Below, in pieces: positions 567 through 6,110 of a stretch of DNA of 64,000 nt; position 1 is the stretch's first letter, and every line of letters starts with the position of its first letter. Position numbers and translations under genes: made by a program. The DNA lies in the NCBI GenBank assembly GCA_051881575.1, contig JBJEQD010000105.1, positions 4,316-68,315 on the forward strand, given 5' to 3'. Under the pieces are notes generated by a model. The model had not been told where the DNA came from. It ran no database searches and saw only the letters and a program-made list of their open reading frames with translations. The DNA comes from Acutalibacteraceae bacterium. GTDB taxonomy: Bacteria; Bacillota; Clostridia; Oscillospirales; Acutalibacteraceae.

Positions 567-704
567 GGCGTACTCCTTTCGGTTATGTTTATTTAATTAT
601 ACCCGATTAATTTGCCTACTTCAATCGTCAAAATGATGCAAATGTATAATTATTAAATATGCTTTATGAACGCAGATTATCGGTGAAAAAAGCCGAAAAA
701 GCTG

Positions 705-1457
705 TTACATTATTTCATTCAAACATTCCCTGAATTTCGGGAGCCACCATTCTTTATAGCCCGCTTTGGTGGGATGAATTCTGTCAACAAGATAAAGCTT
801 TCGCTCTCCTTGCGTGATTGAGTTAATTTCTTCATCGTTCCATAAATCCAGAACGGTTATATCCCATTTTTTCTGAATCTTCAAAAGCAAATCAACCATT
901 TCGGCGTAATAATCGCTGTCATATCTTGCTTGGGTATAAAACACAACGGGGCAATCCCATGCAGACCTTGCATAAGAGATTATGTATTCAATTGCACCTG
1001 CAACGGTCAGAGTGTCAAAATCGTTCATGTCGAAGCTTTCGGAGATTTCTCCGAGCGGCATTTCCTTTGTTGCGTCGTTGGTTGAAAGCTGACAAACGAA
1101 CGCATCGGCTTTGATGCTTTTATCGATGTTTTTCAGCCTCGAAACATAGGAGTTGCTTTTAACATCAACAAGAGTTGTGCCCGAAACAGCCTCCTTAACG
1201 GCGTTTATGCCGTCGGTTTTTTCAAGATAATCCGCAAAGCTGATACCGAACGAGCCGTAGCCGTAGGTTACGGAACTGCCGAGAAAGATAACCGTTTTTC
1301 CCTTTAATGACGAATCGGCATCGGCTTTTGCACCGTTCATAGAATAATCGCCGTAGTTGCCTTTTGAAAACACGCCGAACATATTGCCCACAAAGCCTCC
1401 CGGAATCATCAATAGAATCAAAATAACCGAAATAATAATTATTGTTTTCTTTTTCAT
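705..1457 (-). CDS. SGNH/GDSL hydrolase with N-terminal membrane anchor
   Basis: FLGSSVTYG, STND and DRIHP blocks; start MKKKTIII at 1457 overlaps the upstream stop (ATGA). Confidence 0.75.
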   Translation of the reverse strand: MKKKTIIIISVILILLMIPGGFVGNMFGVFSKGNYGDYSMNGAKADADSSLKGKTVIFLGSSVTYGYGSFGISFADYLEKTDGINAVKEAVSGTTLVDVKSNSYVSRLKNIDKSIKADAFVCQLSTNDATKEMPLGEISESFDMNDFDTLTVAGAIEYIISYARSAWDCPVVFYTQARYDSDYYAEMVDLLLKIQKKWDITVLDLWNDEEINSITQGERKLYLVDRIHPTKAGYKEWWLPKFRECLNEIM

Positions 1458-3766: not shown

Positions 3767-3790
3767 TATTGCGGTTTCAGCCATAATATG

Positions 3791-3832
3791 CGGCAGCAGC
3801 CTCTGCACTTTGCAGAGACTGCTGTTTTTTTG
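3791..3832. terminator. Bidirectional intrinsic terminator between convergent beta-helix and recombinase genes
   Basis: GCAGCAGCCTCTGC-ACTTT-GCAGAGACTGCTG followed by a T run. Confidence 0.7.
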
Positions 3833-3835
3833 CTT

Positions 3836-5530
3836 TTACGCCGATTTTTTGCCCGCCTTTTCTGCAAGCTCCCTGTTCATTTCGATATATTCAGCCGCCT
3901 TTTCGTAAGCGTCATTGAATTTGAACTTAACCGTAATATTTCCGCCCTCATGGACGAGTATTTCGTCAATAAGCTCAACAACCATAGCTCTGTTGAGCGA
4001 ATCGATGTTTCCGTACTGCCTGAAGCGGGCGATAAATTCATTTCCGCCGTCAACTCCGTTTTCGTATTCCTCTGCGGTCTTTTTGAGGCTCTCTATCGTT
4101 TTGTCAATCGCTTCAATTTTATCCGTAAGATTGGTTTTCAGCGTGATATATTCCTCTTTTGAAATTATGCCGTCTTTCCAGTCGGGATACAGGTCAAGAG
4201 ACATTTTCAGGCACTTTTCACGCTCTGCAATACGGGATTTCAACATCTTCTGCAAATGCGTTGATTCTTTTTTCCTTTCCGTGCTTTTATTAATCTCCGC
4301 CAATATCTCATCGAACTCAGCGGCGGTGTCAATCATCTTTTGGAGAGTTACCAAAACGGCATTTTCAAGCTTGTCAATGCGGATTGTGTGGTTTGTGCAG
4401 GCGTTTTTGCTCATCTTTCTTGAAGTCAGGCATCTGTAATAACGGTAAGTGCCGTAAGGATGCTCGTTGGTTTTCTTGTTCATCGTTCTGCCGCAGTCGG
4501 CGCATCTGACAAGCCCCGAAAACAAATCAACCTCTTTTCTGACGGGCGAAGAACGGATATTTTTTCTGAAAAGCGACTGTGCCTTATTAAAAGTGTCTTT
4601 ATCTATAATCGGCTCATGCGTATTTTCAACAATTATCCATTCTTCTCTCGGGACGGGTCGGCATTGCTTTATTTTGTAGCTGATGGTCGTATTCTTGCCC
4701 TGCACCATGTTGCCGATATACATTTCATTCTGCAAAATGCGCCTAACGGAGCTGTCATGCCACAAGCCGTCGTTGTTTTTGCCCGTCGGGTGGCGGTAGT
4801 TAAGCCCTTTCAGCTTCTTATACATTGAGGGGTTGGGAATGCCCTCATCGTTCAAAGCTTTGGCAATGCCGATAATGCTCTGACCGGCGATAAACCTTTC
4901 AAAAATCATTCTGACAACGGGCGCAGTCTCATCATCAATAATAAGCTGATGGCGGTCATCGGGATTTTTAAGATATCCGTAAGTAGGGAATGAGCCGATG
5001 AACTTGCCCTGCGCTCTGTTAACATTCAGAGTTCCCCTGACATTCACCGATGTGGTCGCCGCAAGACTTTCGTTGATAACATTTGTAACGCCGACTGAAA
5101 TACACTGCGTTGCGGCGTTCATATTGTCAGAAGCCGTGTCAACTCCGTTGTTAAGGGCGATAAAACGAACCTTTAAGCGAACAAAAATATTGTCGAGATA
5201 ATTGCCCGCATCGGTATAATTTCGCCCGAATCTTGACAAATCCTTAACAATAACGCAGTTGACCGCTCCCGAATAGATATCCTCCATCATACGGGCAAAA
5301 CCGGGTCTGTCAAAGCTTGTGCCGCTCCAGCCGTCGTCGATATAGAAATCGTGCATTTCAATGTCGGGATGAAGCTTCAGATACTCTTTCAGAATCTCAC
5401 GCTGAGATGTGATTGAATAGCTCTCCGTTTTGTCGCCGTCCTCTCGGGACAGACGAATATAAAGAGCAGCCCTCCAGGTTTTCAAGCTCTTTTGAGGCTG
5501 CTCTGAGTAATCATTATATTTTGCATGCAT
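3836..5530 (-). CDS. Large serine recombinase (resolvase + recombinase + zinc ribbon + coiled coil, DUF4368-like C-terminus)
   Basis: YIRLSRED catalytic motif, DDGWSGTSFDRP, VKDLSRFGRN, CADCG...YYRC zinc ribbon; SD GGAGG 8 nt before ATG 5530. Confidence 0.93.
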   Translation of the reverse strand: MHAKYNDYSEQPQKSLKTWRAALYIRLSREDGDKTESYSITSQREILKEYLKLHPDIEMHDFYIDDGWSGTSFDRPGFARMMEDIYSGAVNCVIVKDLSRFGRNYTDAGNYLDNIFVRLKVRFIALNNGVDTASDNMNAATQCISVGVTNVINESLAATTSVNVRGTLNVNRAQGKFIGSFPTYGYLKNPDDRHQLIIDDETAPVVRMIFERFIAGQSIIGIAKALNDEGIPNPSMYKKLKGLNYRHPTGKNNDGLWHDSSVRRILQNEMYIGNMVQGKNTTISYKIKQCRPVPREEWIIVENTHEPIIDKDTFNKAQSLFRKNIRSSPVRKEVDLFSGLVRCADCGRTMNKKTNEHPYGTYRYYRCLTSRKMSKNACTNHTIRIDKLENAVLVTLQKMIDTAAEFDEILAEINKSTERKKESTHLQKMLKSRIAEREKCLKMSLDLYPDWKDGIISKEEYITLKTNLTDKIEAIDKTIESLKKTAEEYENGVDGGNEFIARFRQYGNIDSLNRAMVVELIDEILVHEGGNITVKFKFNDAYEKAAEYIEMNRELAEKAGKKSA

Positions 5531-5560
5531 AAGCAAAACCTCCGTTGATCCATATATACC

Positions 5561-5620
5561 AAGCGGCGGCTGCCATATATCTTACAGGATGATTATAGCA
5601 CACCGCTGCTTTATTTTCAA
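5561..5620 (-). promoter_or_regulatory. Recombinase promoter embedded in a 51-bp imperfect inverted repeat (att-like site or operator)
   Basis: Minus strand TTGAAA-17-TATAAT with TG extension; arms 5561-5580 and 5592-5611 are imperfectly complementary around an 11-bp spacer. Confidence 0.6.
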
Positions 5621-5649
5621 TTTATATCAGGCTGAAAAATAATGGCAAA

Positions 5650-5898
5650 TCAAGAAACAAAAAGTGCGCTGCTCAAAGCGCCCGAAAAATCTTTTCCGCC
5701 GCTGTATTCCACCTTTACGGCAACATCGCCCACCTTAAAAAGATAAGGATTTTTTGCCTGTTTCACAAAGCTTTCAATTCGTTCAGTCACGGGCTTTCCT
5801 CTGTCAATGTTAATGTCCCTCAAATCGGCAAGCGCACTTTTGTCGCAAAACGCTATTTCGGCGGCTTTGCATTTTTCAAGCTCCGATCGGTTAAGCAT
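5650..5898 (-). CDS. DUF6870-like small protein, recombinase-associated
   Basis: LADLRDINIDRGKPVTERIESFVKQAKNPYLFKVGDVAVKVEY pattern recognised from memory of this family; SD GAGGAG; position directly upstream of the recombinase. Confidence 0.7.
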   Translation of the reverse strand: MLNRSELEKCKAAEIAFCDKSALADLRDINIDRGKPVTERIESFVKQAKNPYLFKVGDVAVKVEYSGGKDFSGALSSALFVS

Positions 5899-5983
5899 AA
5901 AATCACTCCTCTTATAATCATGTTTGGCTATGTTTATGGATTTAATTCGATTTGTCGGACAGTAGCTGCTCTGAATTTTCCTT

Positions 5984-6035
5984 GAAAAAAAGCCCCGAAG
6001 AATGTCTCAAAACCCATGAGATGATTCTTCGGGGT
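5984..6035 (-). terminator. Intrinsic terminator of yaaL-bofA
   Basis: CCCCGAAGAAT...ATTCTTCGGGG stem with a T7 tail on the minus strand. Confidence 0.7.
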
Positions 6036-6110
6036 AATTCTATTAATTTTCGATTGATTATTTTGCGGTGTGCGTTATTCTCTTGTTATATATTATTACA
6101 TTATCTATGT

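What the first reader, a model, noticed from the sequence alone, without database searches (positions are those of the whole stretch)
3836..5898. Lone DUF6870 + large serine recombinase module with an att-sized inverted repeat between the two genes
Seen: an 82-aa gene, then a 51-bp imperfect inverted repeat (arms 5561-5580 and 5592-5611, 11-bp spacer) whose distal arm carries the TG-TATAAT of the recombinase promoter, then an apparently intact recombinase. No phage, conjugation or relaxase genes flank it; the neighbours are yaaL-bofA and a metabolic operon. Known: serine integrase attP sites are ~50-bp imperfect inverted repeats, and Tn4451 places the tnpX promoter at the circle junction. Inference: the order 'small gene - att-like site - integrase' resembles an excised-circle junction frozen in the chromosome. 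DUF6870 may be a directionality factor, and the pair may act in trans or autoregulate through this site.
Basis: partly seen in the sequence, partly recalled or inferred. Interest (0 to 1): 0.62.

Follow-up and report, generated by a model that had tools for sequence, protein, structure and literature searches.

The report
Detached recombinase cassette for split spoVAD
The lone small gene plus serine recombinase is the cutting-and-joining cassette of a DNA element family that splits the spore gene spoVAD; in this genome the split gene lies on other contigs, and the repeat between the two genes looks like an expression-control hairpin, not the recombinase's DNA target.

Summary
In detail: DUF6870 gene (5650-5898, -), intact large serine recombinase (LSR, 3836-5530, -), a TTGAAA-17-TGnTATAAT promoter, and an imperfect inverted repeat around its -10 box, flanked by host genes.

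The "frozen attP junction" reading does not hold. In about 50 related loci this gene pair sits in an element that interrupts spoVAD at one fixed CC dinucleotide. This genome also has a split spoVAD, with the N half on contig C2 and the C half on C64. Joining the halves gives a protein identical to the intact gene of the nearest relative (37 synonymous, 1 non-synonymous codon difference). The reconstructed attP, a 27+CC+27 palindrome, is unrelated to the intergenic repeat.

The window's LSR is the only cognate recombinase and is under purifying selection (29 syn : 2 nonsyn). It sits next to bofA, away from both att sites.

The repeat arms change sequence between lineages but stay complementary (z -2.6 to -5.0 in 10 of 12). 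The promoter-distal arm hides the ribosome-binding site in 8 of 13 lineages, though not significantly in the window. A 25-45-nt reverse-complement copy of the LSR leader lies just inside attL in 13 of 16 genomes.

Best reading: a distant recombinase/directionality cassette that rebuilds spoVAD, under RNA-level control. Excision, timing and DUF6870's role are untested.

The parts
3836..5530 (-). Large serine recombinase gene (564 aa from ATG 5530; an upstream TTG at 5536 gives 566 aa). It is the ortholog of the recombinase of spoVAD-intervening elements.
   Evidence: Pfam Resolvase, Recombinase, Zn_ribbon_recom and DUF4368. 84-86% aa identity to LSRs that lie 0.1-3.5 kb from attR/spoVAD-C in other Acutalibacteraceae. 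29 synonymous versus 2 non-synonymous codon differences against a second strain. It is the only such LSR in the genome; the others are at most 33% identical.
5539..5543 (-). Shine-Dalgarno GGAGG of the recombinase gene, 8 nt before the ATG.
   Evidence: Read from the sequence; conserved in all aligned loci.
5543..5586 (-). Predicted 5' leader of the recombinase mRNA. It comprises the box TGTAAGAT (5586-5579), arm 2 and a distal part. It is the reverse complement of the sequence just inside attL on contig C2.
   Evidence: Duplex of -44.7 to -48.9 kcal/mol with the attL-proximal 110-125 nt. z is -6.4 against shuffles; 4 of 3000 random genomic windows and 0 of 400 random locus windows do as well. 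The same relation, with lineage-specific sequence, holds in 13 of 16 genomes.
5561..5580 (-). Arm 2 of the inverted repeat (core CCGCCGCTT, 5569-5561), transcribed. Candidate anti-Shine-Dalgarno.
   Evidence: Pairs with arm 1 in the fold. In 8 of 13 lineages the equivalent arm sequesters the SD (P free 0.00, at most 3 of 100 shuffles). In the window itself the effect is weak (0.22, 22 of 100).
5592..5600 (-). Extended -10 element TGcTATAAT of the recombinase promoter.
   Evidence: Promoter scan 11/12 with TG. The -35 / 17 nt / -10 layout is conserved in 16 loci.
5603..5611 (-). Arm 1 of the inverted repeat (AAGCAGCGG). It lies in the promoter spacer, so it is present only in transcripts that start upstream, that is, read-through from DUF6870.
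5615..5620 (-). -35 element TTGAAA.
5650..5898 (-). DUF6870 gene (82 aa), a candidate recombination directionality factor or regulator.
   Evidence: Pfam PF21757 3.1e-20. Single copy in the genome. Always directly upstream of the LSR in related loci. AF2 model with pLDDT 81.6 has no fold match in PDB or BFVD.
5899..5965 (-). Conserved block upstream of DUF6870: RBS AGGAGTGAT and a promoter-like G(A/T)AT(A/T)...CAA(A/T)AAT pattern. The left limit of family-wide similarity is about 55-67 nt before the start codon.
   Evidence: Alignments.
5985..6035 (-). bofA terminator hairpin plus U-run. Together with 5966-6105 it forms a 207-nt stretch with no homolog elsewhere. Homology with the nearest relative, which lacks the module, ends at 6106.
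3793..3831 (.). Bidirectional terminator hairpin between the recombinase stop and the convergent pectate-lyase-fold gene; right limit of the module.

Best explanation
The two genes are the recombination cassette of the element family that interrupts the sporulation gene spoVAD at one fixed CC dinucleotide: a large serine recombinase plus a small DUF6870 partner.

Shown:
- This genome carries a split spoVAD with intact attL (contig C2) and attR (contig C64).
- Both gene halves, and the recombinase, are under purifying selection.
- The window's recombinase is the only cognate one in the genome.
- The cassette has been separated from the att sites and now lies between bofA and a pectate-lyase-fold gene.

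Inferred:
- The recombinase, probably helped by DUF6870 as directionality factor, joins attL and attR to rebuild spoVAD. It acts at a distance or in trans.
- The inverted repeat is not a recombination site. It belongs to the recombinase gene's control region. Arm 1 lies in the spacer of a conserved sigma-A-type promoter. Arm 2 lies in the 5' leader, where in most lineages it pairs with the ribosome-binding site.
- Transcripts that start at the internal promoter would therefore be poorly translated. Transcripts that include arm 1 (read-through from DUF6870) would free the ribosome-binding site. So would pairing with the complementary box that lies just inside attL, in the sense direction of spoVAD-N.

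The confidence of 0.6 is for the whole package. Family membership and the presence of cognate att sites rate about 0.9. The repeat being a control hairpin rather than an att site rates about 0.75. Actual spoVAD repair by this cassette rates about 0.5.
For: Family membership:
- The DUF6870+LSR pair recurs in 5 same-genus genomes (LSR 59-69% aa), 28 other Acutalibacteraceae or Clostridia MAGs (84-86%) and 11 further genera (52-67%).
- In these loci spoVAD-C with a conserved P arm follows the LSR within 0.1-6 kb. A truncated spoVAD-N lies upstream.

This genome:
- spoVAD-N is at C2:2572-1925 and spoVAD-C at C64:1580-1987.
- The nearest relative G054 has the intact gene. Its flanks match C2 and C64, with a 2-nt overlap at the joint.
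- The in-silico join is 100% identical in protein to G054's gene. There are 38 nt differences: 37 synonymous and 1 non-synonymous, spread over both halves.
- There is exactly one P arm and one P' arm in the genome.
- The attL-melibiase joint and the bofA-module-PL order are each confirmed by independent Logan contigs.
- The LSR shows 29 syn: 2 nonsyn against a second strain, and the intergenic region shows 0 of 113 differences.
- Spo0A and SpoIVA are present.

Control region:
- The promoter geometry is conserved in 16 loci.
- The hairpin has z -2.6 to -5.0 in 10 of 12 lineages, with at least five different arm sequences.
- The SD is sequestered in 8 of 13 short leaders and freed in several long forms.
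- The attL-proximal complementary box is present in 13 of 16 genomes, with lineage-specific covariation. Cognate duplexes are -29 to -49 kcal/mol. For 7 of the 15 genomes scored, at most 2 of 400 random windows did as well.
Against: - Excision, its timing and DUF6870's role are therefore all inferred.
- The assembly is fragmented. It cannot be told whether the window lies inside or outside the attL-attR interval, or whether the two sites are in direct or inverted orientation.
- In every other locus examined the LSR is close to attR. This detached arrangement could therefore be a step towards decay.
- In the window's own leader, SD sequestration is not significant (P free 0.22, 22 of 100 shuffles). 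It is also weak in four same-genus leaders.
- RNAalifold found no consensus on MAFFT alignments, because the arm register shifts between lineages.
- Three of 16 genomes lack the attL-proximal box.
- spoVAD acts in the forespore in model organisms. The mother-cell logic of known intervening elements therefore does not transfer.
Confidence: 0.6

Rival explanations
1. One reading: the intergenic repeat is an attP-like recombination site, a circle junction frozen in the chromosome, on which the recombinase acts.
For: - The repeat has att-like size (about 50 bp) and is an imperfect palindrome.
- The leader part is an inverted partial copy of the outer P' arm plus the adjacent box.
Against: - The true attB, attL, attR and attP are identified and differ from the repeat.
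- The repeat arms are not conserved among LSRs whose att arms are conserved.
- No P-like or P'-like arm with up to 6 mismatches lies near the module.
- The repeat sits unchanged inside integrated elements in about 50 loci, so it is not a junction product.
Confidence: 0.04
2. The repeat, together with its half-copy next to attL, is a DNA operator for a fast-evolving small DNA-binding protein. That protein would be DUF6870 acting like a Cox- or Xis-type factor, or the recombinase itself. Bound at the promoter it would repress the recombinase gene. Bound beside the P' arm it would steer excision.
For: - The half-sites flank the -10 box and the transcription start, a classic repressor position.
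- A copy lies directly beside the P' arm of attL.
- DUF6870 diverges quickly (35-50% identity between lineages), which could explain why the sites co-vary with it.
- The intergenic region is invariant between strains.
Against: - Arm spacing varies from 21 to 33 nt, which suits a stem-loop better than a dimer operator.
- Sequence around the SD co-varies with arm 2, which only RNA pairing explains.
- The DUF6870 model shows no recognisable DNA-binding fold and has no PDB or BFVD match.
- Complementarity with the attL box begins at the predicted transcription start.
Confidence: 0.2
3. The cassette is a stranded remnant. After rearrangement it no longer serves spoVAD, which is permanently broken in a lineage that is losing sporulation. 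Alternatively it now serves another function, such as inversion elsewhere.
For: - 17 of 61 genus genomes lack spoVAD altogether.
- The cassette is separated from both att sites, unlike every other locus examined.
- The first gene of the element's left end has been lost.
Against: - The LSR shows 29 syn: 2 nonsyn, and the intergenic region is invariant.
- Both spoVAD halves show 37 syn: 1 nonsyn against the intact ortholog.
- The att arms match those of active-looking relatives at 27 of 29 positions.
- Spo0A, SpoIVA, spoVAC and spoVAE are retained.
- The same arrangement is kept in a strain about 2-7% divergent.
Confidence: 0.12

Closest known systems
skin element of sigK with SpoIVCA (B. subtilis; C. 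difficile CD1231 with the directionality factor CD1234)
   Same: A sporulation gene is split by an element whose large serine recombinase rejoins it precisely. A small separate factor gives directionality (PMC5025042; bioRxiv 10.1101/2022.02.25.481979).
   Different: - The target is spoVAD, which by established knowledge is forespore-expressed, not a mother-cell gene.
[quoted passage not shown]
- In the same genus the intervening DNA is a 62-101 kb polysaccharide-synthesis island, not a prophage-like element.
gin element in gerE of Bacillus cereus ATCC 10987 (GirC recombinase plus the 42-aa GirX)
   Same: A non-phage intervening element with a serine recombinase plus a tiny accessory protein required for excision (PMC5595907).
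   Different: GirX is unrelated to DUF6870. gerE is a mother-cell gene. No leader hairpin or attL-proximal complementary box has been described for gin.
SPbeta SprA/SprB rebuilding spsM
   Same: - SprA (YokA) is the best-scoring solved-structure relative of the LSR (2.1e-27).
- An integrase plus a separately regulated small directionality factor rebuilds a gene during sporulation (PMC5499854, PMC4191935).
   Different: SPbeta is an active prophage. Here there are no phage genes, and the partner gene lies directly upstream of the integrase.
Tn4451/Tn4453 TnpX
   Same: A clostridial large serine recombinase with a DUF4368-type C-terminal region. The TnpX N-terminal domain matches at 4.6e-25.
   Different: - The crossover dinucleotide is CC, not GA.
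- There is no mobilisation gene in the window.
- The promoter is not assembled at a circle joint; it is contiguous in the integrated state in all 16 loci.
IS10 RNA-IN/RNA-OUT and structured transposase leaders such as IS200
   Same: The 5' end of the recombinase mRNA is complementary to a second element-encoded sequence, and a leader stem can hide the ribosome-binding site.
   Different: The complementary copy lies at the other end of the element, or on another contig, in the sense direction of the interrupted host gene. The predicted effect is activation by displacing an anti-SD, and this is untested.

Membership tests
Large serine recombinase (serine integrase) | N-terminal resolvase catalytic domain, recombinase domain and zinc-ribbon domain in one protein of about 450-700 aa | tested here: met
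   Pfam PF00239 (2.8e-20, profile positions 1-143 of 145), PF07508 (1.6e-27) and PF13408 (4.8e-17). PHROG 95 integrase at 1e-113.
Large serine recombinase (serine integrase) | att sites of about 40-56 bp that are imperfect palindromes around a non-palindromic 2-bp crossover | tested here: met
   attP reconstructed from attL and attR is 27 + CC + 27, with 21 of 27 arm positions symmetric. The overlap at the empty site is 2 nt.
Sporulation-gene intervening element (skin, SPbeta, gin type) | The element interrupts the coding frame of a sporulation gene, and a precise join restores the frame | tested here: met
   spoVAD is split on C2 and C64. The join equals the intact gene of G054, 338 aa at 100% identity.
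Sporulation-gene intervening element (skin, SPbeta, gin type) | The recombinase is encoded inside the element, at or near one edge | tested here: inconclusive
   This holds in relatives, where attR lies 0.1-6 kb after the LSR. In this genome the LSR lies between bofA and a pectate-lyase-fold gene on a different contig from both att sites.
Sporulation-gene intervening element (skin, SPbeta, gin type) | The target is a mother-cell-expressed gene, and excision is confined to the terminally differentiated mother cell | not testable with these tools
   By established knowledge, spoVAD belongs to the forespore sigma-G spoVA operon in Bacillus and C. difficile. There are no expression data for this organism.
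Sporulation-gene intervening element (skin, SPbeta, gin type) | Developmentally timed excision is observed | not testable with these tools
   The arms differ from P and P'. The arms vary between lineages that share att arms.
Tn4451 family | GA crossover, tnpZ mobilisation gene, and a tnpX promoter assembled at the circle joint | tested here: not met
   The core is CC. There is no mob gene in the window. The promoter is contiguous in integrated elements.
Recombination directionality factor (for DUF6870) | A small protein encoded with the integrase that binds it and switches it to excision | not testable with these tools
   Only the genetic linkage is shown, in about 50 loci. There is no fold match. 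No multimer prediction was available.
Known RNA families (Rfam) | A match at or above the gathering score | tested here: not met
   No match reached a family's gathering score; there were only two sub-threshold chance-level hits (bits 14.6 against 167, and 18 against 60; E 0.44 and 0.97).

The most novel reading that the evidence does not exclude
The interrupted gene's own transcript would license its repair.

- Transcription from the spoVAD promoter runs through the N-terminal fragment and across attL. It then copies a 25-45-nt box that is the reverse complement of the first part of the recombinase mRNA.
- Pairing of the two RNAs displaces the anti-Shine-Dalgarno arm, so the recombinase is translated only where and when spoVA is transcribed, namely in the forespore.
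- That would make this a self-timed DNA rearrangement in the germline. It would work in trans, which would explain why the cassette could move away from the att sites in this genome.
- After the join, the box is no longer downstream of the spoVAD promoter, so the system would switch itself off.
- If attL and attR are inverted in this genome, the event would be a reversible chromosomal inversion rather than a loss of DNA.
Probability: 0.2. Interest if true: 0.85.

Novelty: new variant of a known kind. Interest (0 to 1): 0.62.

Why it matters
All described sporulation-gene intervening elements (skin, SPbeta, gin and relatives) sit in mother-cell genes. Their excision is therefore harmless to the lineage.

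A conserved, selected system that splits a forespore gene raises a question: how does the germline copy cope? The options are excision with heritable loss, a reversible event, or expression elsewhere.

This genome adds three features:
- The recombinase cassette can be physically uncoupled from its sites and still be kept under selection.
- In the same genus the intervening DNA is a 60-100 kb surface-polysaccharide island. Rebuilding spoVAD would then remove or re-orient a whole glycan locus.
- The recombinase leader carries a covarying RNA switch, with a complementary partner placed exactly where the interrupted gene's transcript would read it.

Each point can be tested directly by junction PCR, RNA-seq and reporter fusions. 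On the practical side, the work defines a serine integrase family with known attB and attP sequences and a candidate directionality factor.

Tried and rejected
- Simple inverted-repeat statistics in the window alone: not significant, and the repeat finder does not list the claimed pair. Significance comes only from bulged folding and from comparison with homologs.
- Flanking repeats of the 2.1-kb module as att candidates (D6: 3821-3847 / 5927-5953; I15: 3786-3804 / 5562-5580). Rejected because module similarity ends at the LSR stop codon and about 60 nt before DUF6870, and I15's left arm is the terminator.
- Empty-site comparison at bofA. The nearest relative lacks the module, but the DNA beyond bofA is different, so this is not a clean insertion.
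- Pseudo-att sites near the module: none with up to 6 mismatches.
I relied on per-sequence folds with shuffles instead.
- Scaffolding of C105, C64 and C2. The contig ends share only a short hairpin repeat. Logan contigs with spoVAD-C stop about 400 nt before attR. The C64 ATPase is not on record.
- A single-inversion model explains bofA|module and attL|melibiase but not LSR|PL, so the arrangement is left unresolved.
- Assignment of a sporulation sigma factor to the DUF6870 promoter. A G(T/A)AT(A/T) ... CAA(A/T)AAT pattern is conserved and resembles the spoVAD upstream region. The match in the window itself is poor, so no claim is made.
- Fold and sequence searches for DUF6870 (PDB, BFVD, PHROGs, NCBIfam, literature): nothing.
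Full report
**1. What is in the window**

- On the minus strand, an 82-aa ORF (5650-5898) matches Pfam DUF6870 (3.1e-20).
- It is followed by a 113-nt spacer and a 564-aa ORF (3836-5530) with the full domain set of a large serine recombinase (LSR) plus a weak DUF4368 match.
- The spacer holds a near-consensus promoter: TTGAAA, 17 nt, TG-n-TATAAT at 5620-5592.
- With bulges they fold into a 19-pair hairpin (-21.6 kcal/mol, z -2.8).
- The neighbours are host genes: yaaL and bofA on one side, and a pectate-lyase-fold gene, OYE, GDSL and HAD on the other.
- Two Logan contigs from other runs show the same order.
- Against the more distant of the two, the LSR differs at 29 synonymous and 2 non-synonymous codons. 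The 113-nt spacer differs at no position, while bofA and the 207-nt stretch upstream of DUF6870 differ by about 7%.
- The observation therefore stands, and the cassette is under selection.

**2. Where the cassette normally lives**

- Homologous DUF6870+LSR pairs occur in 5 of 24 same-genus genomes sampled (LSR 59-69% aa).
- They also occur in 28 other Acutalibacteraceae or Clostridia MAGs (84-86%) and in 11 further genera of the family (52-86%).
- None shares the window's flanks.
- In those loci, a 3' fragment of spoVAD begins a few kb (0.1-6 kb) downstream of the LSR. It is preceded by a conserved sequence, TTTATGGT(T/G)T.C.CTTGACATT..CCCC.
- Upstream lies a truncated 5' fragment of spoVAD, followed by CC.GT.GATGTTAAA.TA..ACCAT.
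- The pair is therefore the recombination module of an element family inserted in spoVAD.
- After deriving this, I found that earlier agents of this scan had noted spoVAD-splitting elements in other genomes. I treat those notes as agreement, not as evidence.

**3. This genome has the split gene**

- spoVAD-N is on contig C2 (2572-1925) and spoVAD-C on contig C64 (1580-1987).
- The nearest relative G054 (about 95% nt identity) has an intact spoVAD. Its flanks match C2 and C64 and meet with a 2-nt overlap.
- The sites read as follows:
  - attB: GCAATGGCT-CC-TGCCGCATGC
  - attL: …GGCTCC|CGTAGATGTTAAAATAAAACCATAAAT
  - attR: ATTTATGGTTTTCCCTTGACATTTACC|CCTGCCGC
  - reconstructed attP: a 27 + CC + 27 imperfect palindrome, symmetric at 21 of 27 arm positions
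- Joining the halves gives a 338-aa protein identical to G054's. The two genes differ at 38 nt: 37 synonymous codons and 1 non-synonymous, in both halves.
- Three Logan contigs from three runs carry the same N fragment. One of them runs on into the full melibiase gene beyond attL, confirming that joint.
- The genome holds exactly one P arm and one P' arm, one DUF6870 gene and no other LSR above 33% identity.
- Spo0A, SpoIVA, spoVAC and spoVAE are present.
- The window's LSR is therefore the only plausible enzyme for this attL/attR pair, and the split gene is still kept intact by selection.

**4. The cassette is detached here**

- In every other locus examined the LSR lies close to attR. Here it is flanked by host DNA.
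- Homology with G054 ends 5 nt after bofA (window 6106).
- In G054, bofA is followed by an SDR gene, a melibiase-like gene and a C128-like block. In this genome that melibiase gene abuts attL, about 100 nt inside the element's left end.
- One inversion, with breaks just after bofA and just inside the left end, would explain both joints. It does not explain the LSR/pectate-lyase joint.
- The assembly (164 contigs) cannot tell whether the window lies inside the attL-attR interval or how the sites are oriented.
- In other genus members the arrangement bofA-(X)-spoVAC-spoVAD-N-attL is seen (G024, G053). This neighbourhood has therefore been reshuffled in the G000/G054 lineage.

**5. What interrupts spoVAD in this genus**

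- Among the 61 genus genomes searched, spoVAD is intact in about 27, split in at least 14, and absent in 17.
- Where both halves are on one contig they are 62-101 kb apart and in direct orientation (G001, G019, G047, G060).
- The intervening DNA is a surface-polysaccharide locus: glycosyltransferases, Wzx/Wzy-like proteins, ABC exporter, CpsA-D-like genes and giant surface proteins. There are no phage genes. DUF6870-LSR sits 4-6 kb from attR.
- In other genera the elements are small (about 6-10 kb) and carry relaxase or ParM-like genes.

**6. The inverted repeat is a control element, not an att site**

- In all 16 loci examined the -35 and -10 boxes are kept with a 17-nt spacer (18 nt in one).
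- Arm 1 lies in that spacer. Arm 2 lies about 15-22 nt after the -10 box.
- The arm sequences differ between lineages but stay complementary:

| Arm 1 | Arm 2 |
|---|---|
| AAGCAGCGG | CCGCCGCTT |
| GCGGAAG | CTTCCGC |
| GAAGGTATGG | CCATACCTTC |
| GAAGGTGG | CCACCTTC |
| GGCAGCGCAG | CTGTGCTGCC |
| GCGGTCGGAATGC | GCATACCTGCCGC |

- The hairpin beats dinucleotide shuffles in 10 of 12 lineages, with z from -2.6 to -5.0.
- The att arms, by contrast, are conserved across the same lineages. The repeat is therefore not read by the recombinase's att-binding surface.
- Arm 2 is pyrimidine-rich and complementary to the Shine-Dalgarno region. Sequence next to the SD changes together with it, for example GCATACCT / AGGTATGC and CCTTCATAT / ATATGGAGG.
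- In leaders starting at the predicted transcription start, the SD is fully paired in 8 of 13 lineages (at most 3 of 100 shuffles do as well).
- Adding the upstream part with arm 1 frees the SD in several lineages: 0.63, 0.78 and 0.66.
- In the window and in four same-genus leaders the effect is weak (0.22, 22 of 100). For this locus the anti-SD role is therefore an inference from relatives.
- Arm spacing varies from 21 to 33 nt, which fits a stem-loop better than a dimer operator.

**7. A second copy beside attL**

- In 13 of 16 genomes, representing at least six sequence-distinct lineages, the 25-45 nt just inside attL are the reverse complement of the LSR leader. They lie on the strand that continues spoVAD-N.
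- The complementarity starts at the predicted +1 and covers the box (TGTAAGAT, TGTATGATAAC, TGTGTAGAAAAA or TGTACTGAAAAT) and arm 2.
- For this genome the predicted duplex is -44.7 to -48.9 kcal/mol. z is -6.4; 4 of 3000 random genomic windows and 0 of 400 random locus windows do as well.
- Duplexes between an attL-proximal box and a leader from a different sequence group are at background. The two copies therefore co-vary.
- In silico, adding the cognate attL-proximal RNA raises SD accessibility from 0.22 to 0.63 in the window (non-cognate 0.41), and from 0.00 to 0.32 in G024.
- Here the box is retained even though the first gene of the left end has been lost and the cassette has moved away.
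- This fits a trans-acting role, either as RNA or as a protein-binding site. I cannot decide between the two.
- No Rfam family reaches its gathering score here; there are only two sub-threshold chance-level hits.

**8. DUF6870**

- It is always the gene directly upstream of the LSR.
- The AF2 model (pLDDT 81.6; three helices and a beta-hairpin) has no match in PDB or BFVD. There are no hits in PHROGs, NCBIfam or the paper library.
- A role as directionality factor is plausible by analogy with SprB, CD1234 and GirX (PMC5499854, PMC5025042, PMC5595907). It is untested.

**9. Verdict**

- The cassette is not a minimal mobile element with its att site between the genes. It is the detached recombinase module of the spoVAD-intervening element family, kept under selection in a genome whose spoVAD is split elsewhere.
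- The repeat is a leader and promoter hairpin.
- Shown: the gene family context, the att sites, selection, the covarying hairpin and the complementary box.
- Inferred: excision or inversion during sporulation, the role of DUF6870, and the RNA switch.
- Not resolved: the chromosomal arrangement, because no read-level tool was available.

Noticed in passing
L075:6330-6640 and L078:2200-2500 (also L151 and L012 leaders): A MITE-like insert of about 270 bp, with terminal inverted repeats GGGGTAGCAAATATAATC…GATTATATTTGTTACCCC, sits in the small hairpin just before the recombinase ribosome-binding site in several related loci.
   Followed up: no
L087:8070-8150 and other 'type 2' loci, against L089:8070-8150 'type 1': Directly after the LSR stop codon all loci share TCAATAGGGTATAT. 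Type 2 loci carry its perfect inverted copy about 38 nt further on, forming a 66-bp nested palindrome, followed by a HipA-like gene pair. Type 1 loci diverge at the palindrome centre and carry an HTH gene plus a DUF4143 ATPase. This looks like a joint where cargo modules are exchanged.
   Followed up: partly
G001:C37:31115-95047, G019:C32:3096-65287, G047:C18:4306-71475, G060:C60:12340-113477: In the window's genus, spoVAD is interrupted by 62-101 kb surface-polysaccharide synthesis islands without phage genes. 17 of 61 genus genomes have no spoVAD at all.
   Followed up: partly
window 6106 and G000:C2:1856-1925, against L053:10268-11117: The nearest relative has bofA-SDR-melibiase. This genome has bofA-DUF6870-LSR and attL-melibiase. 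A single inversion explains those two joints but not the LSR/pectate-lyase joint.
   Followed up: partly
G000:C105:45-90 (just before the window) and G000:C64:27-54: Both contig ends carry copies of a hairpin repeat (ATTGCTGTTAAAAAAACTAT…). It is probably a REP-like element that breaks the assembly.
   Followed up: no
window 586-1435: The GDSL lipase gene (705-1481) is absent from the nearest relative G054, where the flanking HAD and OYE genes are adjacent.
   Followed up: no
L167, L165, L168, L170 (attL regions of G201, G265, G324, G167): The attL-proximal box is the 3' half of a terminator-like hairpin. The 5' half of that hairpin is the outer P' arm (AAGACCATACCC…GGGTATGGTCTT followed by TTTTC).
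   Followed up: no
window 5899-5965; G000:C2:2573-2640; alignment A3: The upstream regions of DUF6870 in many lineages, and of spoVAD itself, share a GTATA/GAATA - about 15 nt - xxAA(A/T)AATA pattern. This is reminiscent of forespore sigma-F/G promoters. The window's own copy fits poorly.
   Followed up: partly
window 5666-5681 (-): A terminator-like hairpin plus T-run lies inside the last codons of DUF6870 (GCGCTTTGAGCAGCGC ACTTTTTGTT). It is not conserved in the same-genus loci.
   Followed up: no
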